Part shown: positions 1 to 47,314 of the stretch, one piece after another
How the letters are laid out: every line of letters starts with the position of its first letter
How positions within the stretch are numbered: position 1 is the stretch's first letter
Assembly (NCBI GenBank): GCA_963699695.1
Contig: CAVOUU010000004.1
Span: 437,762 to 501,761, forward strand
Source: an uncultured Acidobacteriota bacterium
GTDB lineage: Bacteria; Acidobacteriota; Terriglobia; Terriglobales; Acidobacteriaceae
Direction: 5' to 3'
Length of the DNA stretch: 64,000 nucleotides
The notes under the pieces: generated by a model
The model's input: the letters and a program-made list of their open reading frames with translations, nothing else
Databases searched by the model: none
What the model was told of the DNA's origin: nothing
Translations under genes and position numbers: made by a program

Positions 1-117
1 GATCAAGTGGCGCACCCGCGCTACGTGCTGATTGGCGGCTCGCAGGCGCAGCTCCTGCTGATGCTCCAGGCTCTGTCGCAAATGCAAGACTGCGTGCAGT
101 GAAAATGTGAAGGCCAT
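1..117 (-). CDS. fliJ: Flagellar export protein FliJ, 5' part only (continues past the window start)
   Basis: Absent from the ORF track because it has no stop in the window. Reverse-strand ATG at 115-117 is preceded by GGAG. Translation MAFTFSLHAVLHLRQSLEHQQELRLRAANQHVARVRHLI is coiled-coil-like and lies 27 nt after the fliI stop, the usual fliH-fliI-fliJ order. Confidence 0.55.
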   Translation of the reverse strand, partial: MAFTFSLHAVLHLRQSLEHQQELRLRAANQHVARVRHLI

Positions 118-29286: not shown

Positions 29287-32200
29287 GTGGCGAAGGGGGT
29301 GTCCTCCATCTCGGGTCTTTCCGGGTACGTGCTGGTGCCCCTCCGAGAAGGCGCGGACTTCACGCTTTACCGGGGTCGACAGCACGGCAACCCATCGTCG
29401 ATCCTGGCGATCGCACTCACGGCCGAACATCCGTCAGCGCAGAGTTTTCGGCGGATCGAGCATGAACTCTCGCTCGCAGCCGAACTCGATCCCGCGTGGG
29501 CAGCCAAGCCTCTGGAACTCACTCGCCACGAAGGGCGGGCAATCCTTGTACTCAAAGATCCTGGAGGCGAGCCACTGGATCTGGTTCTTGAACGGGACCC
29601 GGGACGATTGCTCGATCTGACCCGCGTCTTGCGCATCTCTGTCGGCTTGGCGGTAGCACTCGGCCAAGTCCACCGTCGTGGTCTTATTCATAAGGACATT
29701 AAGCCGGCGAACCTGCTCGTCGACGGCGCCGGCAACGCGTGGCTCACCGGATTCGGAATTGCATCTCGACTGCCGCACGAGCGCCAGTCGCCGGTACCGA
29801 TCGAGATTATTGCTGGCACCCTCGCCTACATGGCGCCGGAACAGACCGGCCGCATGAATCGTTCGATTGATACCCGCAGCGATCTCTACTCGTTGGGCGT
29901 CACTTTGTACGAGCTGCTCACGGGTTCGCTGCCGTTTGCCGCTAACGATCCTCTCGAGTGGATCCACTGCCACATAGCGCGCCAGCCGGCACCGCTTGGC
30001 GATCGCGCCGCAGTCCCCGAGTCGCTGTCAGACATCGTCATGAAGCTCCTCGCCAAAAACGCCGAGGAACGCTATCAGACCGCCTCTGGCCTGGAAGCCG
30101 ACCTCCGGCGGTGCCTGAGCGAGTGGGAATCGCATGCTCGGATCGATCCATTCCCGCTAGCTGCGCGCGACTCATCCGACCAGTTGCTGATTCCCGAGAA
30201 GCTCTACGGGCGGGAGCGCGAGGTCGACGCTCTGCTTGCGGCGTTCGATCGGGTCGTGAACAAGGGTACCCCCGAGCTCGTACTCGTATCTGGTTATGCC
30301 GGCGTCGGAAAATCCTCCCTGGTGAACGAGCTGCACAAAGCGATTGTCTCCAAGCGCGGGCTTTTCGTCTCCGGCAAGTTCGATCAGTACAAGCGCGACG
30401 TCCCATACGCGACTCTTGCACAGGCTTGCCAGAGCTTAGTCCGTCAGATTCTCATTAGAAGTGAAGCGGAGGTCGGCCATTGGCGAAAGGCTCTTCAGGA
30501 CGCTCTGGGGCCGAATGGCCAGCTCATCGTCAACCTCATCCCGGAGGTGGAATTCATTATCGAGAAACAGCAGGCGGTTCCAGACCTGCCGCTGCAAGAT
30601 GCGCAGAACCGCTTTCGGTTGGTGTTTCGGCGGTTCCTCGGGGCGTTCGCGCGGAAGGAGCACCCGCTGGCGCTGTTCCTCGACGATCTGCAATGGATGG
30701 ACGCGGCCAGCCTTGAGCTTCTTGAGTACCTGGTCACGCACTCTGAACTGCAGTATCTGCTGCTGGTGGGCGCCTTTCGGGACAACGAAGCGGGTGCTGC
30801 GCATTCGCTCAAACGGACGCTCGAGTCGATCCGCAAAGCTGGAGCGCGGGTCGAGGAGATCGTGCTTCCGCCTCTCGGACTCGACGACGTTGGCGCGCTC
30901 GTCTCAGACGCGCTGCACTGCACGCCGCAACACGCGTACTCCTTGGTGCAACTGGTGCATGAAAAGACTGCCGGCAATCCATTCTTCGCGATCCACTTTC
31001 TCAGGGCGTTGACCGAGCAAGGGCTGCTCCAGCGCGACCCCGATGCGGGAGCCTGGGTGTGGGACTTGAGTCGGATTCGAGCCCACGGCTACACCGAGAA
31101 CGTCGTGGATCTCATGGTCGAGAAGCTAAAGCGATTGCCAGGCAGCGCGCAGAGGGCCCTACAACAATTCGCTTGTCTTGGAAACGTGTCCGAGATTGCC
31201 AGTCTGAGTCTGGTTTTTGGGAAATCAGAAGAGGCGATCCACGCGTCGTTCTTGGAGGCTGTACGCGCCGGGCTCGTTCTTCCTCTTGATCGCTCCTACG
31301 CTTTTCTCCACGACCGCATTCAGGAGGCGGCGTACGCTCTTATACCAGAAGATAATCGCGCGGGGGAACACCTTCGAATTGGCCGTGTGCTGCTGGCAGG
31401 CATGACCGCGGACCAGTTAGATGAAAATCTGTTCGACGCCGCGAGCCAGCTCAATCGGGGCTCCGCGCTACTCGCCGATCGGAATGAGAAGGCGGACATT
31501 GCGACGATTAACCTGCGTGCTGGCAGAAAGGCGAAGGCGTCAGCTGCTTATGCGTCGGCGCGTGCGTATTTTGCGTCAGGCATAGCTCTGTTAGATGAGC
31601 GGGACTGGACCGAGCAGCACGAGTTGAAATTCAGCCTATCCCTCGAATGTGCGGAGTGTGAGCTTCTCAGCGGTAGCCTGGAAAAGGGTGAGCAAATGAT
31701 TGTGGAGCTGCTGCAACGCGCGGCTTCAGAGATCGAGTTCGCCGATGCCTCCCGCCTCAAGATCAATCTGCATGTATTGACCGGCCAACACTCGCTAGCC
31801 ATCGAGAGCGCGCTCGGATGCCTGCGCCGGTTGGGTATTGACCTGCCGCCGCACCCTGCCTTCGAGCAGGTCCAGGCGGAATACGAGACGGTCTGGCAGG
31901 CCCTTAAGGGGCGTCCGATTGAGAGCCTGATCGACCTGCCGCTGATGACCGATCCAAAACTACACGCAGCCATGCAGGTGCTCTCAGCCCTTGCCGGCCC
32001 TGCCACATTTACCGACTTTCAGTTGTTCTGCCTGCTGGCGTGCCGCATGGTGAGCATCAGCATACAGCACGGGATGAGCGGCGCTTCCGCCTATGCCTAT
32101 GCTTGCCTCGGGTCTGTGCTGGGGCCGAACTTTCACCGTTACCGCGAAGGCTACCGACTGGCCAGGCTTGCCTGCGACCTGGTCGAGAAGCACGCCTACA

Positions 32201-34812: not shown

Positions 34813-35060
34813 CGCTGATTGACCAACAGAATCAACTGGTCAAGGCGTCGGCGGATTGGTTTTGGCTGTGGATTCGATCTGTCAACCGTGTGTTTGCTCT
34901 GACACCTACGTCAGACGCCCGAATCGATATCTTGCTCAACGATGCCGCGACTGCGGACGCGGCTAACGTTACGAGTGGTGCCAAGTGAGTCATGCGCTTT
35001 CGATGGGGTGCTAAACTTACGGTCGATTTGCATCGCCTTTCAGAGAGAGAAGCGTGAGCG

Positions 35061-37478
35061 ATGACATCCAACTCAACTCCGCACAGCGTGGGCGCGAGCG
35101 ACAGTTCGGACCCTAAGGCCGCCTTCGACGCAAGCGCTACTCCCAGGGAATCTATTGCGCCCAATCTAGGTTCGATTGGGCCCTATCGCCTGATCAGGAA
35201 ATTGGGAGAGGGCGGGATGGGAGAGGTGTGGCTGGCGGAACAGTCTGCTCCCGTCAAACGGCAGGTTGGGCTGAAGATCATCAAAGCAGCCCGCTCCGAC
35301 AAGTCCGCATTGATACGCTTTGATCTGGAGCGGCAGGCGCTGGCCTTGATGGATCACCCTGCCATCGCCAAGGTTTTCGACGCCGGTTCCACGGCCGACG
35401 GCCAGCCGTACTTTGCCATGGAGTACGTGCAGGGCCTGCCCATCACCGAATACTGCGACGAGAAGCGTCTTTCTCCTAGCGAGCGCCTGCTTATTTTCAC
35501 AAAAGTATGTGAAGGCGTGCAGCACGCGCATCAGAAAGCAATTATTCATCGCGACCTGAAACCCACGAACATTCTGGTGGTTGAAGTGGATGGCAAGCCC
35601 GTGCCGCGCATTATCGACTTCGGACTGGCCAAAGCGATCTCCGAGCAAACGCAACGCGGGACGCTGGTGACGCGCGCCGGGGGGTTGGTGGGCACGCCCG
35701 GGTATATGAGCCCGGAGCAGATGGATCCCATTGCGGCCGATGTAGATACCCGAAGCGACGTCTATTCGCTCGGCGTCGTGCTCTACGAACTGCTTACGGG
35801 AGTGTTGGCCCTGGATGCCCAGCAGTGGGAGAGCAAACCTTTTCATGAAGTTCTGCGGCGGGTGCACGAAGAGGAGCCGACGAGTCCGAGCACAAGACTC
35901 ATCACAGACCCGGCCGCGGCGGCCATTGCGGAAAAAAGGAGCACGGACCCTCGGCAACTGGCAAACATGCTGCGCGGCGATCTGGACTGGATCACCTTGA
36001 AAGCTCTGGAGAGAGACCGCGCCCGCAGGTATGGCACGCCTGCGGAACTGGCGGACGATCTCGGACGCTATCTGCGCAACGAACCTGTGATTGCGCGGCC
36101 TGCAAGCCTGGTTTACCGGACCAAGAAATACGTTCAACGCCACAAGTTCGGAGTGGCGGCGGCCACCGCTGTGGCAATGCTGCTGATCGCGTTCGGAGTG
36201 ATGCAGGCGATCGAGTTGCGGAGGATTACGCGGGAGCGTGACCGCGCCGACCGCGTTACAAAGTTTATGACCGGCATGTTCAAAGTATCGAACCCCAGCG
36301 AGGCGCGCGGCAACGCAATCACAGCGCGCGAGATTCTTGAGAAGTCCTCGAAAGATATCGACACTGGTTTGCGCAAGGACCCGGAGCTGCAGGCCCAATT
36401 GATGGGAACCATGGCGCAGACGTATGCCGGACTGGGCTTGTATGGCCGCTCGCAAGATTTGGTAGAACGCGCGCGCGCAATTCAAAGCTCAATGTTCGGA
36501 GAACGAAGCAGGGAAACACTGGCAAGCGAAAGTTATCTGGCCCAGCTCCTCCGCGCCCAAGGGCATTTGCCAGAGGCGGAAAAGTTGTTGCAAAGCACGC
36601 TCGAGGCCCAGCGCCAGGTTCTCGGTCCTAATGATCCAGACACTCTGGCGTCTATGGATCGCCTCGGCTATGTTTATGCTAATGAAGCGCGTCACACCGA
36701 CGCTGAAAGCATGTTTCGCCAAACACTGAACGCGGAGCGCAAAGTACTTGGCCCGGACGATCCTCAAACCCTGAGCACTTTGAACGAGCTGGCAGAAATT
36801 CTGACCCCGCAGGGGCGGTATGCGGAAGCAGATCAGATTTATGGCGAACTGGTCGCGGCACAGGAGCGAACTCTCGGGCCGGACCATCCCGCGACCCTGC
36901 TTTCGATGTCACACGCGGCTGAAAATCTTGAGGAGGAGGGCCGCTTCCCAGACGCTGAAAAGCTATATTCCAACGTGATTGCCGCTCAGCGTCGCGTACT
37001 TGGGCCGGAACATCCCCAAACCCTTAGGGCGATGACGATGCTTGCTCTCACCATGGCGAAGGAAGGCCGTTATTCCGAAGCGGACAAACTCCAGAGTCAA
37101 GTGATCGAGATCAAGACCCGCGTGCTGGGGCCAACCCACACTTCCACATTGCAGAGCATGGAAATGGAAGCGCTGGGCCTCAGCCGCGAGGGCCGTTATG
37201 CCGACGCGGAGAAAATGTTTCGCGATGTAATCGAGACAGCAGGAAAGACGAATCAGCCGGCAACAGTGGCCGAAGCTTGGTACAACTTTGCCTGCGCTGA
37301 GGCGGCGAGAGGTCGGCCGGACGAAGCCTTCGCGGACCTGAACCACGCCATCGAGAACGGTCTCATCTCGCCGGGAGAACTTTCAGCGGATCCTGAATTG
37401 AAATCTCTCCACGGCGATCTGCGATTCGACGCCTTGGTCGCCAAGGCACGCGAAACGATCAGCGCGAGAAAAAAGTAG
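35061..37478 (+). CDS. Membrane Ser/Thr protein kinase (canonical Hanks type) with C-terminal TPR repeats
   Basis: 805 aa. GEGGMGEV, VGLKIIK, HRDLKPTNIL, DFGLAK and GTPGYMSPEQ. One TM helix (VAAATAVAMLLIAFGVMQAI), then about 8 TPR_10/12-like repeats (LGPNDPDTLASM, LGPDHPATLLSM, LGPEHPQTLRAM). Confidence 0.92.
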   Translation: MTSNSTPHSVGASDSSDPKAAFDASATPRESIAPNLGSIGPYRLIRKLGEGGMGEVWLAEQSAPVKRQVGLKIIKAARSDKSALIRFDLERQALALMDHPAIAKVFDAGSTADGQPYFAMEYVQGLPITEYCDEKRLSPSERLLIFTKVCEGVQHAHQKAIIHRDLKPTNILVVEVDGKPVPRIIDFGLAKAISEQTQRGTLVTRAGGLVGTPGYMSPEQMDPIAADVDTRSDVYSLGVVLYELLTGVLALDAQQWESKPFHEVLRRVHEEEPTSPSTRLITDPAAAAIAEKRSTDPRQLANMLRGDLDWITLKALERDRARRYGTPAELADDLGRYLRNEPVIARPASLVYRTKKYVQRHKFGVAAATAVAMLLIAFGVMQAIELRRITRERDRADRVTKFMTGMFKVSNPSEARGNAITAREILEKSSKDIDTGLRKDPELQAQLMGTMAQTYAGLGLYGRSQDLVERARAIQSSMFGERSRETLASESYLAQLLRAQGHLPEAEKLLQSTLEAQRQVLGPNDPDTLASMDRLGYVYANEARHTDAESMFRQTLNAERKVLGPDDPQTLSTLNELAEILTPQGRYAEADQIYGELVAAQERTLGPDHPATLLSMSHAAENLEEEGRFPDAEKLYSNVIAAQRRVLGPEHPQTLRAMTMLALTMAKEGRYSEADKLQSQVIEIKTRVLGPTHTSTLQSMEMEALGLSREGRYADAEKMFRDVIETAGKTNQPATVAEAWYNFACAEAARGRPDEAFADLNHAIENGLISPGELSADPELKSLHGDLRFDALVAKARETISARKK

Positions 37479-37659
37479 GGAGCAAGAGACGCTCCGTTTC
37501 ATAGTCCCGACTGACCAGGGCGCTGGTTTCGCTTCCGGGGAATACCATGAGGCGCTTCCAGATCGCATTCAGTAGGGCCGGGTCAGGCTGGTAGAGTTCG
37601 GAGCCGCGGCGGTTCGATTCGGAGATGTCCATCGTCTTCAACTAAGCGAATCAGTTGGC

Positions 37660-38535
37660 TCACAACCTATAACGGCCAGCGAGAACCTCTGCCCGGGTCG
37701 GGAAAGAAATAGTGCATCCGGTTTGCCCCCACTGATTGCCGCAATTGAGGCAGCGAAACTGCGGGCCAATGTCTGTGACTGATTTGCCCTGGCATGCGGG
37801 ACATGGAGGAAGAGCACGGTAGCGCCGAAGGTTCCTTTCTTGGCCTTGTCGGATTCCAATTCCAGCCATTTAAAGAACCCGTCGTACTTGGAACCGCTTT
37901 TGATCCAGTCCAAGGCTTGCGATGTCGAGTCGCACTGATCGTCGAATTTGCCCTTCGGAAAGCTGGTCATTTCATGCAGGTATTCGGCCAGCCATTCTGC
38001 TTTGTCAGGAAGGTGAACAAAGCCGTTCTCGATCGTGCTGGTAACCGAGTGCAGGCGCATTGATCTTCTCGAGCTTCGGCTCGTAGCGAGTTACGGCATG
38101 CAGCCCCTCGTGGCGCAATTCCTGAATCAGCTGGGCACCTGAGCTTTTGTCTTCGATCAAGATGGTTGTGGCCTTGAACCGGTTCGCCTGCTCTCGCACA
38201 GCACGTTTCAATTCCGGATACTCCATCCGGCGACGTAGAACATGCAACAAATAGAGATTGTTCTCTTTCTTTCCCCACGTCGTGCAGACGCTATAGTCAC
38301 TGAGTTCCGTCGCCTTGACAGCCGTGTCCCAGCTTTGGAAAACGAGGTCGAACTTTGAGGATTCGTCGCCGACTTTGTACGTTTTGAACCATGCCAGTTT
38401 GACCATGCCGCCACCGAGAGGAGCCGGCTCCTGTTGATATTGCCCCGAGAAGTTGTATTCGCCCTGTATGGCACGAATGTTCGCGAGAACATCGAGCGAC
38501 TCGCGCCCCGGATGTAGAGCCTCTACGCCGTGCCT
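37660..38535 (-). pseudogene. Phage terminase large-subunit remnant (C-terminal nuclease half, 5'-truncated, at least two frameshifts)
   Basis: Reading starts directly after the hisA stop: RHGVEALHPGRESLDVLANIRAIQGEYNFSGQYQQEPAPLGGGMVKLAWFKTY. It continues in ORF 38005..38406 and shifts frame near 38050 into ORF 37638..38060 (IENGFVHLPDKAEWLAEYLHEMTSFPKGKFDDQCDSTSQALDW). A third frame, 37660..37869, carries a CPAC...CLNC zinc ribbon. No ATPase domain is present. Confidence 0.7.
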
Positions 38536-39216
38536 TTACGCCGAAATCCTACCGGAATACAGGGCCATTCCGACAACGGCGTCCATCCGAAGCGCGTCGA
38601 GGCTGTCGATCTCCTGCTGTGTCCTGATGCCGCCGGCGACCGCCAGCCGCCGCGAAGTGGCCTGTCGGATCGTACTCACAGCCCGCAGCGGAATTCCATT
38701 CATCAAGCCTTCAGTATCGATGTGAGTGTAGAGAAAGGTAGCGCAGAAGGGTTCCAGCGCCCGAATCATGTCGAACGCGGTGACGGAAGTCTCTTTGCGC
38801 CAGCCGTCGATCGCAACCCGGCCGCCTCGCGAATCCAGAGCAAAGACGAGCGCCGCGGCGCCAAGTGCACCTTCCAGCGTAGCAGCGAGTTGCGTGTTGA
38901 TCGTGCCGCTCTGCAACAATGCCGAACCAAAGATGACTCTGCGCGCGCCCGCTTCTAAAAGCTCTCGCGCGGTCGCGAGGCTGCGAATTCCGCCACCCAC
39001 CTGGCAGTTGAGCTGTCTTACAATCTGGTTTACCAAGAGCCGGTTGCTCCCACTACCCCGCGCCGCGTCAAGGTCAATCACCTGGACCAGCGGGTACTTT
39101 GAGAAGCGCTCGATCCAATAGCTGAAGTTGTCGAACTCCAGCGCTTTCCTCTCACCCTGAACCAACTGCACAATCTTGCCGCCCATCAGGTCGATCGACG
39201 GAATTAGCATGGCCAC
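38536..39216 (-). CDS. hisA: ProFAR isomerase HisA
   Basis: 226 aa with the N-terminal [15 protein letters not shown] motif and (beta/alpha)8 HisA/HisF-like sequence. Last gene of the operon. The C-terminus ([13 protein letters not shown]) looks short. Confidence 0.8.
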
Positions 39217-39965
39217 CTCACCGGTATGCTGGCATGGTGCAGTTCGAGCTTCAGTTGTGCGATATTCTCGATGCCGAAGTGAAAAATGGAGGCGGCCAGA
39301 GCTGCGTCCGCGCGGCCTTCGCGAAACACCTGGATGAAGTCCAGCGGAGATCCAGCACCTCCGGAGGCAATGACCGGAATCGAGACTGCTTCGGCCACGG
39401 CGCGTACTAATTGGCAGTCAAACCCGGATTGAGTTCCGTCCCGGTCCATCGAAGTCAGCAGAATCTCGCCCGCTCCGCAAGCCGCCGCTTCCCGCGCCCA
39501 TCGAATCGCATCACGGCCTGTGGGCGTGCGTCCACCTGCGGTGAACACTTCAAACCCTCCATTGACCTTTCTGGCATCGATGGACACTACAACGGCCTGC
39601 GACCCAAAGCGGGCTGCGATCGCGCCAATCAGCGCAGGGTCGCGAACTGCGGCAGAGTTGATCGCGATCTTGTCTGCACCCGCGTTGAAGATCGCGGCCG
39701 CATCCTCGATTTGTCGAACTCCACCCCCCACGGTGAAGGGAACAAATAGCGAGCGCGCGGTACCACGGACGACGTCCAGCAAAGTGCGCCGGTTCCCGCT
39801 GGTCGCGGTAATATCCAGCAGCACGATTTCGTCCGCGCCATTGCGGGCGTGGGCGGCGGCACACTCCGCCGGATCGCCGGCGTCGCGCAAATTCTTGAAC
39901 TGCACGCCCTTCACGACGCGGCCACCATCGACATCGAGGCAGGCGATGATGCGTTTGGTCAACAC
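39204..39965 (-). CDS. hisF: Imidazole glycerol phosphate synthase cyclase subunit HisF
   Basis: 253 aa with [17 protein letters not shown] and [15 protein letters not shown]. Confidence 0.93.
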
Positions 39966-39966
39966 G

Positions 39967-40557
39967 TCAAACCTCGCAAAAGTTTTTCAGGATCGCAAGC
40001 CCCACGTCTCCTGATTTCTCCGGATGGAACTGAACTCCGAAAATGTTGTGTCGCTCGACGGCGGCGGAAAAAGGCTGTCCGTATTCACTCATCGCACTCA
40101 TTGCGGGAAGCACGGGCGCATGAAAAGAGTGGGTGTAGTAGACAAATGAATCTTGCGCGACGCCTCGCAGCAGTCGCGAGCCTTCCTGAATGCGCAAAGA
40201 ATTCCAGCCAACATGCGGCGACTTCACCGAACTCGGAAAGCGCTGGCATTTACCGGAGAAAATACCTGCCCCGGCAACTTCAAGGCACTCCTCGCTCCCG
40301 TCGAAAAGCCACTGCATTCCAAGGCAGATGCCAAGAAGAGGTTTTCCCGCGGACGCGGCTTGCACCAAGGCCTGGCGCAAGCCCGTGCGGTCCAGGGACT
40401 GCAGAGAAGAAAAATGCCCCACTCCGGGCAATACGATTTTGTCCGCCGCGCTCACAGTCTGGGGTCGGTCTGTCACCACAACGTCGGTTCCGAGGCAGGC
40501 AAATGCCTTCTTCACCGAATTCAAATTGCCTGCGCCATAATCCACGACGACGATCAT
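39967..40557 (-). CDS. hisH: Imidazole glycerol phosphate synthase glutaminase subunit HisH
   Basis: 196 aa with [12 protein letters not shown], catalytic GICLGMQ, and [10 protein letters not shown]. Confidence 0.93.
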
Positions 40558-41141
40558 AGAAGTCCCTTGGTGCTGGGGAGCATCCTGCCGAGGCGGCGGT
40601 CACGGGAGCAGGCCACGCGCAGGGCTCGCGCGAATGCCTTGAAGAGCGCTTCGATTTTGTGATGGCTGGCGCGTCCGTATAGCACCCGGGCATGAACATT
40701 GGCGCGAGCACCACGCGCAAAGCCCTCGAAGAAGTCGCAAACTAGTTCCACTTGCAGATCTCCGACTCGCGCCGCACGGACCTTGGTATCGACCACTGCA
40801 GCTGCCCGTCCACCGAAATCGACGGCTGCCAAGCCGAGAGTCTCGTCCATGGGCATGACAAAGTATCCGGCCCGCAAAATGCCACGGCGATCTCCTAACG
40901 CGCGGTCGAAGGCCTCACCGAGGGCAATGCCGACGTCTTCCACGGTATGGTGCTGATCCACGTCCAGGTCGCCGACTGCCTTGATTTTCAAATCGAATCC
41001 GCCGTGCCGTGCGAACAGCTCCAGCATATGGTCCAGAAAGCGGATTCCAGTAGAGACCTCGTACTTGCCGCGTCCCTCAATGGTGAGCGCGATCTTAATC
41101 TCAGTTTCCGCGGTCTTGCGATTCAGCCTGGCTTTCCTCAA
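40554..41141 (-). CDS. hisB: Imidazoleglycerol-phosphate dehydratase HisB (monofunctional)
   Basis: 195 aa with [26 protein letters not shown] and [11 protein letters not shown]. Confidence 0.93.
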
Positions 41142-42220
41142 GCGGTCGCCTCACGATGGAGCCTGAATTCCCCAAGTACCTCGCGCAAGGCGGAGATCAG
41201 AGTCTGCGTATGTTCGAGAGAGCCGACCGTCAGGCGCACGCAACCATCGCACGCTGGATCGGCGTGCCGGTCGCGGACCAGTATCCCGCGGGTGCGCAAA
41301 GCTTGAATGAATTCCGCGTAGGCGGGACCGACACGCACCAGCACAAAGTTGGCGCGGCTCGGCCAGCAGTGCAGGCCAAGAGCTTTCAGCTCCTGCTGCA
41401 ATAGTTCGCGGCCGCGCCGCACCGCGCTGACATAATGCTTGACATACTCGTGATCGCGAAGCGCCTCGGGCAACACTGCAAGCGCAACCGCATTCACGTT
41501 GTAAGGCGAAGCAACGCGGCGCACCATTGCCATCTGTGCCGCATCTCCGGCGAGGATGCCGATTCGAAGACCTGCCAGCCCGTAAGCTTTCGAGAATGTT
41601 CTTGCCGTGAAGAGATTGGCCGGCTGTGCAGCGTGGTGAAGGAGGGTCTCTCCGTGAAACTCAAAGTAGGCTTCGTCCACCAGAATCGCCGCATGCGGCG
41701 CTACATGAGCGATTCGCAGCAGGATGTCGCATGCGACCGCCGTCCCGGTTGGATTATTAGGATTGGCCACCGCGATCAACCGTGTGCGTGGGCTGATCCG
41801 CGAGAGCAGATCGTCCAGAGGAAAGACGAAGTTCTCGCCGGAAGCAACCTGGACCACGCGAGCGCCCTCGGCTTGGGCGAAGATCGCATACATGGCGAAG
41901 GTGGGCACCACGATGATCGCCTCGTCACCGGGATCGAGATAGGTCGAGCACAGCAGGTGAATCGCTTCATCCACGCCATTCGTGAGCAGCACCTGCGACG
42001 CATCGAGTCCGAGAAAGCCAGCGACCTCGGCCTCGACCGGTTCGCGCTCCGGATAACGAGCCAGCGCTTCGGCATCCATCGCCCGCAGCCTTGCCAGTAC
42101 ACGCGGCGAACAACCGATGGTGCTCTCGTTGAAATCGAGACGCAGCCCTTGGCGGCCTGCCAGGGGTGGCCGATAGGCATGCAAATCCCTTACTGCAGCG
42201 CGCGCCTCAAGCATTCGCAC
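41138..42220 (-). CDS. hisC: Histidinol-phosphate aminotransferase HisC
   Basis: 360 aa with VANPNNPTG and the PLP-lysine context [14 protein letters not shown]. Confidence 0.9.
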
Positions 42221-43469
42221 ACCTCACCCGCAACGATTCAGCGTGTCCGCGCAAGCCCTCGGCTTCGGCAAGCACAATGGCCGCAGGGGCGATTCGGCGA
42301 ATGCCTTCGCGGGAGACTTCCTGGCAAGAAATGATGCGAACGTAATCCAGCACGCTCAGGCCACCTCGCACGCGCGCCATCGCTCCGGTCGGCAATACGT
42401 GATTCGGCCCCGAGATGTAATCACCCGCCGACTGGGGGGTGAACTCGTTCAGAAAAATCGAGCCGGCGTTTTGAACCGATGGTGCCAAGGCTGCCGGCAG
42501 CGTGAGATGCTCGGGCGCGATGCGGTTCGCAATCTCGACCGCTTGACCGAGAGATTCAACCAACAGGATGGCGCCGCGACGAGAAAGTGATTCCGCAGCA
42601 ATCGGATTGGCCCGCGTGCGCCGATGCACTTCGCTCCGCACAGCTTTCGCCAATCCCCGCGAACTTGTGATCAAGACACACAGCGCGTCAGGATCGTGCT
42701 CCGACTGCGCCACCAGGTCACATGCGACGAGCGCCGGATCGCCCACCTCGCTGATGAACACAGCTTCGGTAGGACCAGCCAGGAACTCAATCGCGCAATC
42801 GAACGCAACCAGCTTCTTCGCTGCGGTGACATACCGGTTGCCCGGACCGACGATCTTATTTACGCGCGGAATGCTCTCGGTTCCATAGGCGAGGGCAGCA
42901 ATGGCCTGTGCTCCACCCACGCGATAGAACTCACGCACGCCGAGAAATTTCGCAGCGGCCAAAGTCGCCTGGGCCGGGCGCGGCGACACCACGCGGATCT
43001 GCGATACGCCTGCAACCTGCGCCGGAATCACGGTCATCAGCAATGTGGAAGGCAAGGGATAACGTCCGCCGGGAACGTAGCAACCTACCGATTCCAGCGG
43101 CCGCACCAACTGGCCTACACAAACTCCGGGATGAATTTCGTGCCGCCATTCCTGCGGTTTCTGCCACTCGCAATAGCGCCGAATGTTAGCCGCGGCCTGG
43201 GTGATGGCCTGTTGTAGTTCCAGAGGGGTTCGATCCCAGGCATCATGCAGGTCGGCCTCGGGCACGCGCACAGTTTCGCTGCTGGCTAAGCCATCCCAGC
43301 GCTCCCCATAACGGCGCAAGGCACGCTCGCGATTGCGGCGGACATTGCTCACGATGCGCCGCACCGCCGGCTCAACCTCAGCGAGATCGCTTGCGCCGCG
43401 CTGCTCCAGTGCTCGCACGAAGCGGTCTTTTCTGGTCCCCTCAAGAATGCGCATCACATCGCCCATCAC
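42207..43469 (-). CDS. hisD: Histidinol dehydrogenase HisD
   Basis: About 420 aa with QSEHDPDA and [15 protein letters not shown]. The start (GTG 43469 or ATG 43466) overlaps the hisG stop. Confidence 0.92.
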
Positions 43470-44335
43470 ATCACCACCTTATTCAGCGGATACTCCACGA
43501 TTCCCTGCGCATTCGCTTCCTTCAGCTTCGGAATCAGAGTCCAGGCGGCCTGCTCATCGATGATGGTATTGACCGCAACCCATTCGCCGTCCGCCAAGGG
43601 TGCGACGGTTGGATTCTTCAACGCGGGCAGCAGGCCGAGAACCCTAGCCACGTCCGGCTTGCGGACGTTGAGCATCAGGCCCACGCGGCCCTGCGCCGCC
43701 ATGGCCCCGGAGAGCATTACCGCCAGGTTTTCGATCTTGCGCCGCCGCGCAGAATCGGCCAAGGCTGTTTTGTTCGCGATCAGTTGGGTATTCGACTCCA
43801 GCACGGTTTCGATAATTCTGAGGTGGTTGGCGCGCAGCGAACTCCCCGTCTCCGTGACTTCGACGATGGCGTCCGCCAACAACGGCGGTTTCACTTCGGT
43901 CGCGCCCCAGGAGAATTCAACCCGCACAGACACGTTCCGACCAGCAAAGTAGTTGCGCGTAAAATTCACCAGTTCGGTGGCTACGATCCGGCCCTCAAGG
44001 TCTTGAGGTTTCTGAAAGTCTGAATCCTCCGGCACAGCCAGCACCCATCTCACTTTGCCCATACTCTGTTTGGCATAGATCAGGTCAGTGACGCGGACCA
44101 CCTCAAGGCCGCTCTCCGCCACCCAGTCGAGACCGGTCAGGCCGGCATCGAGCGCACCATGTTCGACATAGCGCGCCATTTCCTGCGCACGAATGAGCAG
44201 GCATTCGATTTCTGGATCATCGGTGGCGGCGAAATAGGAGCGCGCGCTGGTGTAGACACGCAGTCCGGCACGGCTGAACAGGCCGAGCGTTGCTTCCTGC
44301 AAGCTTCCCTTGGGGATGCCCAAACGAAGTTTCAT
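43466..44335 (-). CDS. hisG: ATP phosphoribosyltransferase HisG (long form with C-terminal regulatory domain)
   Basis: Tracked ORF extends to 44530. The real start is taken as [12 protein letters not shown] at ATG 44335, which forms an ATGA overlap with the hisI stop. Contains [13 protein letters not shown] and a C-terminal ACT-like domain. Confidence 0.9.
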
Positions 44336-44691
44336 CGCCGCGTCTCCTCCGCCACATCTATGGCCTCCGCACCAAGTTGCAGTTGCTGCGTGAAGCAGGA
44401 TTTCGATCCGGTATGGCAAACCTTGCCCTCGCCCAACACGCGGACGCGGAACAGCACCGTGTCGCGGTCGCAGTCGGTCCATGCCGCCATGACCTGCAGC
44501 CGATTGCCGGAAGTTTCTCCTTTGGTCCACAGCCTTTTTCGCGTGCGGCTATAAAACGTGACGAAGCCCGTGCGCAACGTTGTCTCCAGCGCTTTGCAGT
44601 TCATGAAGCCCACCATTAGCAGCTCTCCGGTGCGTGCATCCTGAATCACTGCGGCTACCAGGCCTTGCATTTTGTCGAAGTCGATTTCCAT
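44332..44691 (-). CDS. hisI: Phosphoribosyl-AMP cyclohydrolase HisI (no fused HisE domain)
   Basis: Start taken at [11 protein letters not shown] (ATG 44691, GGAG 9 nt upstream). Contains [31 protein letters not shown] and CDRDTVL...GEGKVCHTG. Confidence 0.88.
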
Positions 44692-44736
44692 TAGATCGCT
44701 CCGTCCCTGCATCCCGCTGCTCGAAGCCCGCGGCAG

Positions 44737-44775
44737 AAACAAAAAGCCCGCTGCGCGGTTCGCGTCAGCGGGCTT
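44737..44775 (-). terminator. Intrinsic terminator of the his attenuator
   Basis: Minus-strand RNA reads AAGCCCGCUG-ACGCGAACCGCG-CAGCGGGCUU followed by UUUUGUUU. A perfect 10-bp stem extends through CGCG/CGCG. It lies between the leader stop (44803) and the hisI start (44691). Confidence 0.8.
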
Positions 44776-44802
44776 GGATTTCCTATCAGTGCTTTTAGGC
44801 TG

Positions 44803-44880
44803 TTATCCGTAGTCCTCCGCCGACGCGCTCATCGCGTGATGGTGATGATGATGGTGACGGTGGTAGTTCGACGAGATCAT
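44803..44880 (-). CDS. hisL: his operon leader peptide (25 aa, 8 His in 9 codons)
   Basis: Reverse strand: ATG ATC TCG TCG AAC TAC CAC CGT CAC CAT CAT CAT CAC CAT CAC GCG ATG AGC GCG TCG GCG GAG GAC TAC GGA TAA = MISSNYHRHHHHHHHAMSASAEDYG. An in-frame TAA lies 12 nt upstream of the ATG. Too short for the ORF track. Confidence 0.8.
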   Translation of the reverse strand: MISSNYHRHHHHHHHAMSASAEDYG

Positions 44881-44889
44881 AACTGCTTG

Positions 44890-44919
44890 ATGTTAGGACG
44901 GTGGGCATTTCTCCGTCAA
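44890..44919 (-). promoter_or_regulatory. Candidate his promoter (TTGACG-18-TAACAT on the minus strand)
   Basis: Hexamer match only. The -10 element ends 9 nt before the leader ATG, and no Shine-Dalgarno sequence is visible. Confidence 0.3.
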
Positions 44920-45190
44920 TCGAATTTCACATACTTACAGTCGCAAAAAGCCGGAACTCCGCGACTCGCCAATTTGCGGCGGATTGACACGCCATCCCTT
45001 AGAGCGCCAACTCCTATTAGAAAAAGGCACTTGGCCGCTCTCGCTGTTTACCCGTCGAGGGGGCGCATCGCAAACTTGCATTGGTCCCATCATTTCTTTG
45101 CGTGCTCATCAGGGTGGGCCGAAAGGAAATTTGGAGAGGTCAACAGGATGGTATGCAGGAGGTCGAAAAGCTCCATCGGCTGTTGGGACC

Positions 45191-47314
45191 TTAATCGCGG
45201 TTTCGCGGCTGGCGAATTGTTACGTTCCGCTCCGGCAGAGCCTCAAGGGTCACGACCTCGAATGGTCCCAGCGTGAAGGTATGTTGCTGTCCAGCTGCGA
45301 GCGCCAGTGGAGTAGCTGTTCTGTCTTGCGTCCAACGGTTACGCGCCATAAATCGGCCGGGCACCCCTGAAGGTAGCTCAAAAGCCTGCCCGACGTCGAT
45401 CACGATGCTCTGACCCTTGTCGCTCGGATTTCGCAGCGTGAGTATGGCTTTCGCTGGCGACCAGGCGGCCCACCCGTAAATTTTCAACTTGCCTGGGTCG
45501 CCGCCTACCCAATGTGTGTCTCTTAGAACCTCTGCGTTTTGTCGTGACCAATTCGCCGCTTCCGCAAGCACATCCCAATCCTTCTTTAAGAGGAGCGAGT
45601 GCGAAATATATAACTCCTGAAGTTGAGTTCCGCTACCGAAGTACGAATGGACTTCATTTTCGAAGTCGCTTCCCTGGTCGCTATCCAGATGTTCTGCCTG
45701 CCTGGCGTAAATCAGCCCGTGCAACATGAGCGAATTCAAGGGAAAGAGCGGACCGGCTTGCACAACGTTCTGATAGGTCTGCGCGTCCCTGTAAGTGATC
45801 CATTTCTCGCGCCAGGTTCCGACTCCGGTAAAGCTGTGGTCGTCTCCTCCTCGCCAGATCGAGTCGGCGTAGCGCAACCAGAACGGTGAAGGATAGGTTC
45901 CAGTGGTGAGGTTGACGAAGAGGTCTGGCTTTTCTGCGCGCCACTCCTCGATCAAACGGATGGCCGCTGCAAAGTCACTATCGAAACTACTGCCGGGGAA
46001 AACGCTGTCGACATTGCCGGTGCCGTCAATTTTGAACTGGTTGATTCCGTCCTTGATGAAATCGAGGGAAACCTCCCGGAACCGGGAGTAGTACTTTGGG
46101 CCGGAGAGAGCAAACCCTCCTGCATTGGTTTCGAAACCGTGACTTTGGCCGAAGTCGATGCGCCGCTGCTTTGCTTCTTCATAGCCTCCCCATGGGGAGA
46201 GCCATATTCCCATCGCCGCACCATATTTTTGCGCGGCCTGATTTAAAGGACGAATGCCTTCTGGGAACCCCGCATTCATCTGCCACGTCGAACTTGGATT
46301 GTCCCAGCCATCATCGAGAAGAAAGGAATCCAACTTCACGTTGCGCCGGCGAACCAGTTCGGTTCCGAAAGCGTGGATGACATCGAGCACCGCGGCCGCA
46401 TCGTACGGCTTGCCGTAGCCAATGTCGTACCACGAGTTGTAGTGGAGAAATGTTCGGTAGGGATGAGCTCGCTCGCGCTCAATGTAGTTGAGAAATCCGC
46501 GGCGCATTTGGCCGGCAGGTGACACTCCGATAACTAGGGAATATTCGACGGTTTGGCCCTTCGTCAGGGGTAGTTCCCGCTTGATAGTGCAAGTTACAGT
46601 GTTTGTCGCCTGGCACACGGCCAAGGGATTTTCGAATCCGAGAAATAAGTTTCCGGCGGTGACGGGAGAGCCTTTGACTTTCCCAATCACTCTCGCTCGT
46701 GGCAGGCTCCCATCGAATAAACTCACTTCGACAATTGGCTCATCGCTATCCGGCGCCGAGAGCGAGATCTCTTCCCGAATATAGTTCGAATCGTCGCGGA
46801 GCACGACGCGCCAGACGATGGAAACGCTTCTCTTCGTCTCTTGCTCTGTTTTTTGCTTCTCTTCAGATTCTCTGCCGAGGTATTGCAGGCGGAGAGAAAT
46901 AGCTTTGCCCGCAAAATGATCGCCTGCGCGCGATGCTCTGGGGTTCGATGGCAGATCCTCAATCTGTGGACCGCCGGTGATGACCATGTCGGAGGCGTGG
47001 ACTGTCGTCCCATCTTTGAAGGTGAAGCTGAAGGCATCGCGCGGAAGAGAGACCAGCGTCCTGGTGCTTTGGGCTGCCAGCGTGACAGCGGTCAGCTTAC
47101 CTTCGGCGACCGACCATTGCGCCTGGATCTTCTGGTTCGCTAACGAGAGAACTCCGACTCGTATCTGCGCATTTGCTTTTCCCGCAGAAATTCCGTAGAG
47201 CACGGGAGTCTGTCCCGCTGCGAGGGAACAAACATAGAGGAGGAACACGACGAGCCCTGCTCTCAGTTTCCATGCAATTGCAGAGGCGGAAATCGGCATT
47301 CTGCTTGTCAGCAT
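45191..47314 (-). CDS. Secreted clan GH-D-like glycosidase (alpha-galactosidase / alpha-N-acetylgalactosaminidase-like)
   Basis: Tracked to 47911. The start is set at ATG 47314 (MLTSRMPISASAIAWKLRAGLVVFLLYVCSLAAGQ signal), which shares its A with the agaS TGA. Catalytic-domain hallmarks are FLLDDGWDN and KIDGTGN. Confidence 0.75.
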   Translation of the reverse strand: MLTSRMPISASAIAWKLRAGLVVFLLYVCSLAAGQTPVLYGISAGKANAQIRVGVLSLANQKIQAQWSVAEGKLTAVTLAAQSTRTLVSLPRDAFSFTFKDGTTVHASDMVITGGPQIEDLPSNPRASRAGDHFAGKAISLRLQYLGRESEEKQKTEQETKRSVSIVWRVVLRDDSNYIREEISLSAPDSDEPIVEVSLFDGSLPRARVIGKVKGSPVTAGNLFLGFENPLAVCQATNTVTCTIKRELPLTKGQTVEYSLVIGVSPAGQMRRGFLNYIERERAHPYRTFLHYNSWYDIGYGKPYDAAAVLDVIHAFGTELVRRRNVKLDSFLLDDGWDNPSSTWQMNAGFPEGIRPLNQAAQKYGAAMGIWLSPWGGYEEAKQRRIDFGQSHGFETNAGGFALSGPKYYSRFREVSLDFIKDGINQFKIDGTGNVDSVFPGSSFDSDFAAAIRLIEEWRAEKPDLFVNLTTGTYPSPFWLRYADSIWRGGDDHSFTGVGTWREKWITYRDAQTYQNVVQAGPLFPLNSLMLHGLIYARQAEHLDSDQGSDFENEVHSYFGSGTQLQELYISHSLLLKKDWDVLAEAANWSRQNAEVLRDTHWVGGDPGKLKIYGWAAWSPAKAILTLRNPSDKGQSIVIDVGQAFELPSGVPGRFMARNRWTQDRTATPLALAAGQQHTFTLGPFEVVTLEALPERNVTIRQPRNRD

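What the first reader, a model, noticed from the sequence alone, without database searches (positions are those of the whole stretch)
44737..44919. Untracked His-rich leader peptide with terminator/antiterminator: a ribosome-mediated attenuator ahead of the his operon
The minus strand from 44880 to 44803 encodes MISSNYHRHHHHHHHAMSASAEDYG, with 7 consecutive His codons and 8 His in 9 codons. It is too short for the ORF track, which shows only its antisense shadow (44836..45276 +, MMVMMMVTVVV).

A perfect 10-bp GC stem lies 27 nt after the leader stop: AAGCCCGCUG/CAGCGGGCUU, at plus coordinates 44766-44775 and 44744-44753. It can be extended through CGCG/CGCG. UUUUGUUU follows, and hisI starts at 44691.

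The leader's 3' end (CGCGUCGGCGG, 44817-44827, codons 18-22) can pair over 11 bp, with one G.U, with the 5' arm of the terminator (CCGCUGACGCG, 44761-44771). This is the competing antiterminator helix. A ribosome that reaches the stop codon would cover it, so the terminator forms. A ribosome stalled in the His run would leave it free, so transcription reads through.

This is the logic of the enterobacterial hisL attenuator. I know that mechanism mainly from Gammaproteobacteria, and I cannot verify whether it has been described in this lineage. The leader has no visible Shine-Dalgarno sequence and sits 9 nt after a TTGACG-18-TAACAT promoter-like element, so it may be translated from a near-leaderless transcript.
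Basis: partly seen in the sequence, partly recalled or inferred. Interest (0 to 1): 0.75.

Follow-up and report, generated by a model that had tools for sequence, protein, structure and literature searches.

The report
Histidine leader-peptide attenuator in Acidobacteria
A 25-codon mini-gene with seven histidine codons in a row, followed by two mutually exclusive RNA hairpins, sits in front of the histidine biosynthesis operon of this soil acidobacterium and of at least 75 related species, so it is almost certainly a classical ribosome-sensing "attenuator" switch that has not been catalogued for this phylum.

Summary
The minus strand carries a 25-codon ORF (44880-44803) with 7 consecutive His codons, then a GC hairpin with a U tract (44775-44737), then hisI-G-D-C-B-H-F-A.

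In 80 Terriglobia genomes fetched through HisG, all 75 loci with enough upstream DNA have the same layout:
- a 16-28 aa ORF with 5-10 His codons;
- a terminator hairpin (74 of 75 with a U tract);
- an antiterminator helix between the 3' part of the ORF and the terminator's 5' arm.

Both helices are kept across species (93.5% and 88.1% of cells paired) and show compensatory changes. His codons vary only at the synonymous third base. The antiterminator codons are frozen at the third base. Masked folding reproduces the switch.

A TTGACn-17/18-TAnnnT promoter ends 6-11 nt before the start codon in 67 of 75 loci. An SD-like motif is present in only 5 of 75. The leader ORF is therefore probably translated from a leaderless or near-leaderless mRNA.

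Rfam His_leader (RF00514) does not match it, and I found no paper describing it. Verdict: a real, well-supported new family of a known mechanism. Interest is moderate. No experiment exists.

The parts
44914..44919 (-). -35-like hexamer TTGACG of the his promoter
   Evidence: Found by the consensus scan. TTGACn is present at the equivalent place in 66 of 75 related loci.
44890..44895 (-). -10-like hexamer TAACAT, ending 9 nt before the leader ATG
   Evidence: In 67 of 75 loci a promoter match of at least 8/12 ends 6-11 nt before the leader start, against 0.57% of control ATGs.
44803..44880 (-). Leader ORF (25 codons plus TAA): MISSNYHRHHHHHHHAMSASAEDYG
   Evidence: Equivalent ORFs of 16-28 aa with 5-10 His are in all 75 loci with enough upstream DNA.
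44836..44856 (-). Seven consecutive His codons (codons 9-15), the regulatory codons. An eighth His codon lies at 44860-44862.
   Evidence: 1 match, 0 of 100 shuffles. Codon positions 1 and 2 are 88-100% conserved and position 3 only 58-69% (295 CAT, 226 CAC). This indicates selection on the encoded His.
44824..44836 (-). Small hairpin CGCG-AUGAG-CGCG directly after the His run. It may be a pause hairpin or a partial anti-antiterminator ('1:2').
   Evidence: Predicted by RNAalifold. 95.6% of cells are paired, 9 cells have a change on both sides, and the covariation score was reached by 0 of 500 shuffles.
44817..44827 (-). Segment 2: 5' strand of the antiterminator (CGCGUCGGCGG), inside codons 18-22 of the leader ORF
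   Evidence: Third codon positions here are 88-97% conserved, which points to an RNA-level constraint.
44761..44775 (-). Segment 3: 5' arm of the terminator (AAGCCCGCUG-A-CGCG). Bases 44761-44771 pair with segment 2 in the alternative structure.
44744..44757 (-). Segment 4: 3' arm of the terminator (CGCG-CAGCGGGCUU)
   Evidence: The outer stem is 93.5% paired across 74 sequences, with 28 cells changed on both sides.
44737..44743 (-). U tract (UUUGUUU), which continues the UU at the end of the stem
   Evidence: A U-rich tail follows the hairpin in 74 of 75 loci.
44332..44691 (-). hisI (monofunctional phosphoribosyl-AMP cyclohydrolase), first structural gene. A GGAG Shine-Dalgarno lies 9 nt before the ATG.
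   Evidence: NF000768, 136.8 bits, above the cut-off.
38536..44335 (-). Rest of the regulated operon: hisG, hisD, hisC, hisB, hisH, hisF, hisA
   Evidence: NCBIfam models for each gene.

Best explanation
This is a ribosome-mediated transcription attenuator of the hisIGDCBHFA operon.

Start of the transcript. Transcription starts at a sigma-70-type promoter. Its -10 box ends 9 nt before the leader ATG, so the RNA begins about 0-4 nt before the start codon. The 25-codon leader ORF is then translated without a Shine-Dalgarno sequence, as a leaderless or near-leaderless message.

His-tRNA plentiful. The ribosome runs through the 8 His codons to the UAA. There its footprint covers segment 2 (44827-44817), which lies 13-25 nt before the end of the stop codon. 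Segment 3 can then pair only with segment 4. The GC hairpin plus U tract forms and RNA polymerase terminates at about 44737-44743, before hisI.

His-tRNA scarce. The ribosome stalls within the His run and leaves segment 2 free. Segment 2 pairs with segment 3 as soon as segment 3 is transcribed (11 bp). The terminator cannot form and transcription continues into the operon.

What is shown: the sequence elements, their conservation, covariation and mutual exclusivity, and the geometry relative to a ribosome footprint.

What is inferred: the transcription start, actual termination, coupling of transcription and translation, and the histidine response.
For: Anatomy in the window.

Operon identity.

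Conservation. All 75 Terriglobales and Bryobacterales loci with enough upstream DNA carry a His-rich short ORF about 110 nt before hisI. 74 of 75 have a hairpin of -14 to -26 kcal/mol plus a U tract.

Antiterminator.
- In nearly every locus the best partner of the terminator's 5' arm lies 10-25 nt before the stop codon (median z = -2.6 against shuffles).
- On the 74-sequence alignment 88.1% of cells are paired, against 26-52% when the partner is slid by 1-3 columns. 15 cells have a change on both sides, and the covariation score was reached by 0 of 500 shuffles.
- In six loci, G to A in the terminator arm is matched by C to U in the leader, while that base is unpaired in the terminator.

Terminator: 93.5% of cells paired and 28 cells changed on both sides.

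Codon signature. His codons vary only at the synonymous position. The codons of segment 2 are frozen at the third position.

Masked folding. The stalled state gives the antiterminator in 96% of loci. The stop-codon state gives the terminator in 100%.

Window energies in kcal/mol.
- No ribosome: terminator conformer -47.5, antiterminator conformer -37.9.
- Ribosome stalled mid-run: -34.5 against -31.8.
- Ribosome at the stop codon: antiterminator impossible.

Leaderless start. A promoter match ends 6-11 nt before the start codon in 67 of 75 loci, against 0.57% of control ATGs. An SD-like motif is present in 5 of 75 leaders, against 56 of 74 hisI starts. About 13% of genes were predicted to be leaderless in 3 of 3 Acidobacteria genomes (PMC3160421).

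Linkage to the operon. The window's upstream gene has no homologue in any of the 80 related loci, so the element travels with the his operon.
Against: There are no experimental data of any kind: no TSS, 3' ends or histidine response.

The helices are so conserved that covariation rests on few independent events, probably 3-6 clade-level changes. The sequences are also related, so the shuffle control overstates significance.

In the full-length RNA the terminator conformer is always at least as stable as the antiterminator. Read-through therefore depends on co-transcriptional kinetics, which were not modelled.

A ribosome stalled on the last His codon would already cover the first bases of segment 2, so only stalls early or in the middle of the run would derepress.

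A positionally conserved long 1:2 helix was not found (median z = -0.8). Behaviour without translation is therefore uncertain.

Promoter recognition in Acidobacteria has not been characterised. Five Bryobacterales loci lack the -35 box.
Confidence: 0.85

Rival explanations
1. It is the same His-codon attenuator, but the leader ORF is translated from a conventional 5' UTR. The real promoter would lie further upstream, and initiation would use a non-SD mechanism (for example an A/U-rich, S1-dependent one) rather than a leaderless one.
For: No TSS data exist. With 9 nt between the -10 box and the ATG, the predicted transcript would keep 2-4 nt of 5' UTR rather than none. Five Bryobacterales loci lack a TTGACA -35 box.
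Against: The promoter-like element keeps a fixed distance of 6-11 nt to the start codon in 67 of 75 divergent loci, against 0.57% of control ATGs. SD-like motifs are almost absent (5 of 75), while hisI in the same loci has them (56 of 74).
Confidence: 0.2
2. The His-run ORF controls the operon by another route than intrinsic termination. One option is ribosome stalling that modulates Rho-dependent termination. Another is control of translation or stability of hisI. In either case the hairpin would be only a constitutive partial terminator or a stabiliser.
For: Function of the hairpin as a terminator is inferred from sequence only. Translational attenuators with leaderless short ORFs exist in mycobacteria (bioRxiv 10.1101/834739).
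Against: The hairpin has a conserved U tract in 74 of 75 loci. It ends about 46 nt before the hisI ATG and does not include the hisI Shine-Dalgarno. A conserved helix that specifically competes with its 5' arm has no role unless hairpin formation matters.
Confidence: 0.07
3. The short ORF encodes a functional His-rich micro-protein (for example a metal-binding peptide) that is merely co-transcribed with the his genes. The hairpin would be unrelated.
For: His-rich peptides can bind Ni, Zn or Cu. The ORF is conserved in frame in 75 loci.
Against: Outside the His run, conservation is at the nucleotide level and not the amino-acid level. Third codon positions are 88-97% conserved in codons 16 and 18-21. 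The N-terminal residues are not conserved. The ORF is always followed by a terminator and by hisI. No Pfam or NCBIfam family matches the peptide.
Confidence: 0.03
4. It is a chance His-codon run next to the terminator of an upstream gene.
For: None beyond the abstract possibility.
Against: (CAY)7 occurred in 0 of 100 shuffles. The element lies downstream of its own promoter. The window's upstream gene is absent from all 80 related loci, while the leader and terminator are always present.
Confidence: 0.01

Closest known systems
Enterobacterial his operon leader (hisL attenuator; Rfam RF00514 His_leader; Salmonella/E. coli model, PMC4046918)
   Same: A short ORF with 7 consecutive His codons lies upstream of the his operon, followed by a GC-rich intrinsic terminator and a competing antiterminator. 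The position of the ribosome selects the structure. The Terriglobia covariance model R1 aligns to the E. coli hisL region at 38.6 bits, through the ATG, the His run and the terminator.
   Different: RF00514 gives no match to the window or to L020, L060 and L061, even at lenient thresholds. It scores 131.6 bits on E. coli.

The ORF is 25 codons rather than 16. It runs 10 codons past the His run, so the antiterminator 5' strand lies inside the ORF, not downstream of the stop.

I found a two-helix switch plus a 4-bp hairpin, not the six-segment A-F scheme.

There is no SD sequence, and the promoter abuts the start codon.

The first gene is hisI, not hisG.
Predicted His-leader attenuators in Firmicutes (Bacillus cereus group, Peptostreptococcaceae, Erysipelotrichales; PMC9413887) and upstream of hisS/hisZ in Bacilli (PMC2965389)
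   Same: They are lineage-specific His-codon leader ORFs with terminator and antiterminator hairpins. RF00514 does not detect them, and they were found by comparative genomics only.
   Different: They come from a different phylum and have 3-5 consecutive His codons. I did not compare their sequences with this one directly. I did not read whether those leader ORFs have their own ribosome-binding sites.
Leaderless short-ORF attenuators of Actinobacteria (polycysteine leaderless ORFs in mycobacteria, bioRxiv 10.1101/834739; leader peptides of trp, leu, ilv and aroF in Corynebacterium glutamicum, PMC3890552)
   Same: [quoted passage not shown]
   Different: [quoted passage not shown] Here the output structure is an intrinsic terminator with a U tract. 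The phylum and the amino acid also differ.
E. coli thr and ilv leaders (thrL, ilvL), recalled from my own knowledge
   Same: The leader ORF continues past the regulatory codons, so part of the switching RNA is inside the ORF. Rfam Thr_leader gave the best leader-type hit, though far below threshold (17.8 bits against a gathering score of 55).
   Different: The hit is sub-threshold and reflects only the generic architecture. The regulatory codons are His.

Membership tests
Ribosome-mediated (leader-peptide) transcription attenuators | [quoted passage not shown] | tested here: met
   8 His in 25 codons, 7 of them consecutive, upstream of hisIGDCBHFA. Conserved in 75 of 75 loci, with synonymous variation only at the third base of the His codons.
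Ribosome-mediated (leader-peptide) transcription attenuators | An intrinsic terminator (GC hairpin plus U tract) between the leader ORF and the first structural gene | tested here: met
   The hairpin folds at -24.9 kcal/mol and is followed by UUUGUUU. Present in 74 of 75 loci. 93.5% of cells are paired, with compensatory changes. Actual termination was not tested.
Ribosome-mediated (leader-peptide) transcription attenuators | An antiterminator helix that shares a strand with the terminator | tested here: met
   The 11-bp helix 44827-44817 / 44771-44761. 88.1% of cells are paired across 74 sequences, against 26-52% in the slid controls. A clade-level compensatory change is specific to this helix.
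Ribosome-mediated (leader-peptide) transcription attenuators | Geometry: a ribosome at the stop codon blocks the antiterminator, and a ribosome stalled at the regulatory codons permits it | tested here: met
   Folding with footprints masked gives the terminator in 100% of loci for the stop-codon state and the antiterminator in 96% for the stalled state. This is in silico only.
Ribosome-mediated (leader-peptide) transcription attenuators | A 1:2 anti-antiterminator or pause hairpin that enforces termination without translation | tested here: inconclusive
   A 4-bp hairpin after the His run is conserved. Longer pairing of the C-rich His region with segment 2 appears in the MFE of 96% of loci. 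It is not better than shuffles, and its position varies.
Ribosome-mediated (leader-peptide) transcription attenuators | Read-through responds to histidine or charged tRNA-His | not testable with these tools
   Needs Term-seq, reporter or Northern experiments in a cultured carrier.
Rfam RF00514 His_leader | Covariance-model score at or above the gathering threshold (49 bits) | tested here: not met
   No RF00514 match was listed for window 44400-45300 at E up to 10, or for L020, L060 and L061 at E up to 1. Positive control: E. coli hisL scores 131.6 bits.
Curated leader-peptide protein families in Pfam-A and NCBIfam | A profile match of the peptide | tested here: not met
   The 25-aa peptide matched 0 families in NCBIfam (E up to 0.01) and 0 in Pfam-A (E up to 10). 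HMMER's filters drop most matches above E of about 0.1.
T-box (tRNA-His sensing) leader or other known riboswitch | A match to an Rfam T-box or riboswitch model | tested here: not met
   Only sub-threshold hits to unrelated sRNA or leader models were found in 44400-45300.
Leaderless or near-leaderless mRNAs | The transcription start lies within 0-5 nt of the start codon and there is no Shine-Dalgarno sequence | tested here: inconclusive
   Only proxies are met. The -10 box ends 6-11 nt before the start codon in 67 of 75 loci (control 0.57%). An SD-like motif is present in 5 of 75. The TSS itself has not been measured.

The most novel reading that the evidence does not exclude
Across the class Terriglobia (Terriglobales and Bryobacterales), the his operon would be controlled by a His-codon attenuator whose sensory ORF begins at the very 5' end of the transcript. 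Coupling of the first ribosome to RNA polymerase would then rely on 70S leaderless initiation rather than on an SD-led 5' UTR. It would be the first functionally assignable attenuator in Acidobacteriota and an independently evolved solution, or at least one unrecognisably diverged from enterobacterial hisL. It could serve as a native histidine-responsive switch for a phylum with few genetic tools.
Probability: 0.55. Interest if true: 0.5.

Novelty: new member of a known kind. Interest (0 to 1): 0.4.

Why it matters
Acidobacteriota are among the most abundant soil bacteria, yet almost nothing is known about their cis-regulatory RNA. Naville and Gautheret noted that almost none of the attenuators predicted in this phylum had an assigned function (PMC2965389).

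This element gives a clear, testable function to a conserved 5' leader in at least 75 species-level genomes. It shows that histidine biosynthesis in Terriglobia is probably tuned by charged tRNA-His through the classical mechanism.

It also adds a probable case of attenuation driven by a leaderless short ORF outside Actinobacteria.

In practice it is a candidate new Rfam family. It corrects annotation, because the ORF is too short for gene callers and only an antisense 'shadow' ORF is listed. It could also be used as a native amino-acid-responsive expression switch.

It does not change the understanding of attenuation itself.

Tried and rejected
- The simple terminator scanner found nothing in 44300-45400, presumably because the bulged A leaves only the 4-bp inner stem for a gapless stem search. 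Folding and a custom search recover the hairpin.
- Rfam at lenient thresholds gave only sub-threshold hits: Bp2_287, Thr_leader, Trp_leader and others. They reflect the terminator or the generic leader layout. Rejected as memberships.
- The spacer helix GGAU/AUCC plus CCUA/UAGG between the stop codon and the terminator appears in the window's stalled-state fold. It is only 54.8% paired alignment-wide, little above the slid controls. I treat it as clade-specific at most.
- An extended 1:2 helix between the His-codon region and segment 2 is not better than shuffles, and its position is not conserved. Only the 4-bp hairpin is kept as a part.
- Terminator of an upstream gene: rejected, because the upstream gene is not conserved.
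- Other amino-acid-run leader ORFs in the window: none has a terminator.
- Literature searches for a His attenuator or leader peptide in Acidobacteria or Terriglobia found nothing specific. Subscription-only papers, such as Vitreschak et al. 2004 in FEMS Microbiol Lett, could not be searched.
- Distribution outside Terriglobia could not be tested. The single genome-contig scan returned only the 80 closest HisG loci.
- My first automatic choice of ORF or start codon was wrong for L002, L017, L022, L052 and L065. I corrected these by hand from the alignment.

Full report
1. OBSERVATION

On the minus strand the window reads: TTGACG-18 nt-TAACAT (44919-44890), 9 nt, then ATG (44880). The ORF is MISSNYHRHHHHHHHAMSASAEDYG and ends with TAA at 44805-44803.

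After a 27-nt spacer comes the hairpin AAGCCCGCUG-A-CGCG-AAC-CGCG-CAGCGGGCUU (44775-44744), followed by UUUGUUU (to 44737). hisI starts at 44691.

The seven-codon His run is unique in the 64-kb window and never arose in 100 shuffles. The hairpin folds at -24.9 kcal/mol. It dominates both the MFE and the centroid of the 161-nt leader (z = -2.6).

2. CONTEXT

NCBIfam names the downstream genes as hisI (monofunctional), hisG, hisD, hisC, hisB, hisH, hisF and hisA. All are on the minus strand, from 44691 down to 38536.

The closest HisG relatives, at 85-92% identity, are MAGs labelled Candidatus Sulfotelmatobacter, Acidobacteriaceae or Terriglobales. The window therefore comes from class Terriglobia, phylum Acidobacteriota.

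3. COMPARATIVE TEST

I fetched 80 species-level loci around HisG homologues (68-92% identity). They cover Terriglobales and Bryobacterales and include the cultured Tunturiibacter lichenicola and Granulicella sp. L60. Five loci are truncated too close to hisG to contain the leader.

Leader ORF. All other 75 loci carry a short ORF of 16-28 aa with 5-10 His codons, about 110 nt before hisI. One truncated locus (L037) still shows the 3' half of the element at its very end.

Terminator. 74 of 75 loci have a hairpin of -14 to -26 kcal/mol followed by a U-rich tail. The remaining one (L070) has the hairpin with a weaker tail.

Linkage. The gene upstream of the promoter in the window has no homologue in any of the 80 loci. 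The element therefore belongs to the his operon and not to an upstream gene.

4. THE TWO COMPETING HELICES

Alignment-free test. For each locus I asked where the 5' arm of the terminator pairs best in the upstream RNA. In nearly every locus the partner lies inside the 3' part of the leader ORF, 10-25 nt before the end of the stop codon. The median z is -2.6 against shuffled upstream sequence.

Test on the 74-sequence MAFFT alignment A1:

| Helix | Cells paired | Slid controls | Cells changed on both sides | Shuffles reaching the covariation score |
|---|---|---|---|---|
| Terminator outer stem | 93.5% | 30-56% | 28 | 0 of 500 |
| Antiterminator (11 pairs) | 88.1% | 26-52% | 15 | 0 of 500 |

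The most telling change concerns six Acidobacteriaceae-type loci (L055, L065, L068, L075, L076, L080). The terminator-arm base equivalent to G44766 is A. That A is unpaired in the terminator (A opposite G). Its antiterminator partner has changed from C to U, giving U-A. Related loci show the U.G intermediate.

Elsewhere, a U to C change in the shared strand is compensated by A to G in the terminator. The same change turns G.U into G-C in the antiterminator.

Caveat. The helices are highly conserved and the sequences are related. The independent events are few, and the shuffle control is generous.

5. SIGNATURES OF TRANSLATION AND OF RNA STRUCTURE IN THE SAME ORF

In the His run, codon positions 1 and 2 are 88-100% conserved, while position 3 is only 58-69% conserved (295 CAT, 226 CAC). 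What is preserved is therefore 'His codon', which means the frame is read.

In codons 16 and 18-21 (segment 2) the third positions are 88-97% conserved, often more than the second positions. What is preserved there is the RNA.

The N-terminal codons are not conserved. This argues against a functional peptide.

6. DOES THE GEOMETRY WORK?

I folded each locus with a ribosome footprint made unpairable.
- Ribosome with a mid-run His codon in the A site, transcript ending before the terminator's 3' arm: the 5' arm pairs with segment 2 in 96% of loci.
- Ribosome with the stop codon in the A site: the terminator forms in 100% of loci.

Energies for the window, in kcal/mol:

| State | Terminator conformer | Antiterminator conformer |
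|---|---|---|
| No ribosome | -47.5 | -37.9 |
| Stalled mid-run | -34.5 | -31.8 |
| A site on the last His codon | -30.7 | impossible (footprint already covers segment 2) |
| At the stop codon | -34.4 | impossible |

The switch is therefore kinetic, as in the classical systems: 2:3 must form before segment 4 is made. Stalls early or in the middle of the run are the effective ones. In Salmonella, stalling at central His positions also gave the highest expression (PMC4046918).

7. SEGMENT 1

RNAalifold found a 4-bp hairpin CGCG-AUGAG-CGCG directly after the His run (44836-44824). It is 95.6% paired, with 9 cells changed on both sides.

Its 3' strand is the first four bases of segment 2. Its 5' strand lies within the footprint of a ribosome stalled on the last His codons. 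It may be a pause hairpin or a weak anti-antiterminator.

Longer pairing between the C-rich His-codon region and the G-rich segment 2 appears in the MFE of 96% of loci before segment 3 is made. It is no better than shuffles, and its position varies. I regard it as compositional and leave the no-translation default open. For the window the prediction is termination.

8. START OF THE TRANSCRIPT

A TTGACn-16..19-TAnnnT match of at least 8/12 ends 6-11 nt before the leader start codon in 67 of 75 loci. With L002, whose start I mis-set, the count is 68. The same is true of only 0.57% of 7,199 control ATGs in the same DNA.

GGAG, GAGG or AGGA occurs before 5 of 75 leader starts, against 56 of 74 hisI starts.

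With the usual spacing between the -10 box and the start site, the RNA would begin 0-4 nt before the start codon.

This is plausible for the phylum. About 13% of genes were predicted to be leaderless in all three Acidobacteria genomes analysed by Zheng et al. (PMC3160421). Five Bryobacterales loci keep the -10-like box but lack the -35 box. No TSS data exist.

9. COMPARISON WITH WHAT IS KNOWN

Mechanistically this is the enterobacterial hisL logic: a 16-aa leader with 7 consecutive His codons and an E:F terminator (PMC4046918).

It is not a member of Rfam His_leader. RF00514 is absent from the lenient hit lists for the window and for three diverse relatives, while it scores 131.6 bits on E. 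coli hisL. The peptide matches nothing in Pfam or NCBIfam. No T-box or riboswitch model matches.

In the reverse direction, my model R1 of the Terriglobia leader finds the E. coli leader at 38.6 bits. The match rests only on the ATG, the His run and the GC terminator. That is shared design, not demonstrable homology.

Differences from the enteric leader:
- the ORF is longer, and the antiterminator strand lies inside it;
- the helix scheme is simpler;
- there is no SD sequence;
- hisI is the first gene.

Lineage-specific His leaders that RF00514 misses have been predicted in some Firmicutes (PMC9413887) and upstream of hisS/hisZ in Bacilli (PMC2965389). Leaderless sensory ORFs are known in Actinobacteria (bioRxiv 10.1101/834739).

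I found no description for Acidobacteria. Papers in subscription journals could not be searched.

10. VERDICT

It is a new, unannotated, class-wide family of a well-known regulatory mechanism, probably with a leaderless sensory ORF.

Confidence that it is a His-responsive, ribosome-mediated transcription attenuator is 0.85. Confidence that it is leaderless or near-leaderless is about 0.6.

Interest is moderate (0.4). It is a solid and useful annotation and a good experimental entry point into gene regulation in Acidobacteriota, but it is not conceptually surprising.

Noticed in passing
window 37638-38406 (-): Two overlapping ORFs lie directly downstream of hisA. ORF 38005-38406 matches Pfam Terminase_6C (E = 5.8e-10), and the reading frame appears broken. 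It looks like a decayed phage terminase large-subunit gene next to the his operon.
   Followed up: partly
window 44332-44691 (-), and all loci L001-L080: hisI is monofunctional (119 aa, no HisE part). It is the first gene of the operon, ahead of hisG. No hisE is present in the operon, so it must be encoded elsewhere.
   Followed up: partly
L026 and L028 (both from MAG CAVXGY01, MFD05513.bin.1.16): One MAG carries two separate contigs, each with a complete leader-hisI-hisG locus (R1 scores 114 and 119 bits). This is either a duplicated his locus or a mixed bin.
   Followed up: no
L065:2458-2621: The leader ATG is out of frame with the His run because of a 1-2 nt indel near codon 10, although the RNA motif scores 110 bits. 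It is probably an assembly error in the MAG, or possibly a decaying leader.
   Followed up: no
L061, L063, L064, L069, L070 (Bryobacterales), 60 nt upstream of the leader ATG: These loci keep a -10-like TAnnnT box 7-11 nt before the start codon but have no TTGACA-like -35 box, unlike the Terriglobales loci. They may use a different promoter architecture.
   Followed up: no
leader ORFs of all loci; window codon 8 (CGT, 44857-44859): One non-His codon interrupts the His codons one or two codons before the main run. It is Arg CGN in most Terriglobales, Gly GGN in Acidobacteriaceae-type loci and Leu CUN in another clade. The reason is unknown. It may contribute C/G bases for pairing with segment 2.
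   Followed up: no
window 44700-44735 (-): Between the terminator and hisI, the sequence GCCGCGGGCUUCGAGCAGCGGGAUGC repeats the CAGCGGG motif of the terminator's 3' arm. Similar GCGCGGGC motifs occur in the closest relatives (L005, L009). It could be a second partner for the CCCGCUG strand in read-through transcripts.
   Followed up: no
window 44836-45276 (+) and 44795-44908 (-): Longer ORFs overlap the leader: an antisense 146-aa ORF beginning MMVMMMVTVVV, and a 37-aa ORF in another frame that starts upstream of the -10 box. Both are by-products of the His-codon run. Gene callers could mis-annotate them in place of the true 25-codon ORF.
   Followed up: partly
window 29287-37478 (+): Two very large Ser/Thr-kinase-like ORFs lie a few kb beyond the his operon. 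One is 1841 aa with a C-terminal histidine-kinase-like part, and the other is 805 aa with TPR-like repeats. This reading comes from the translations only.
   Followed up: no
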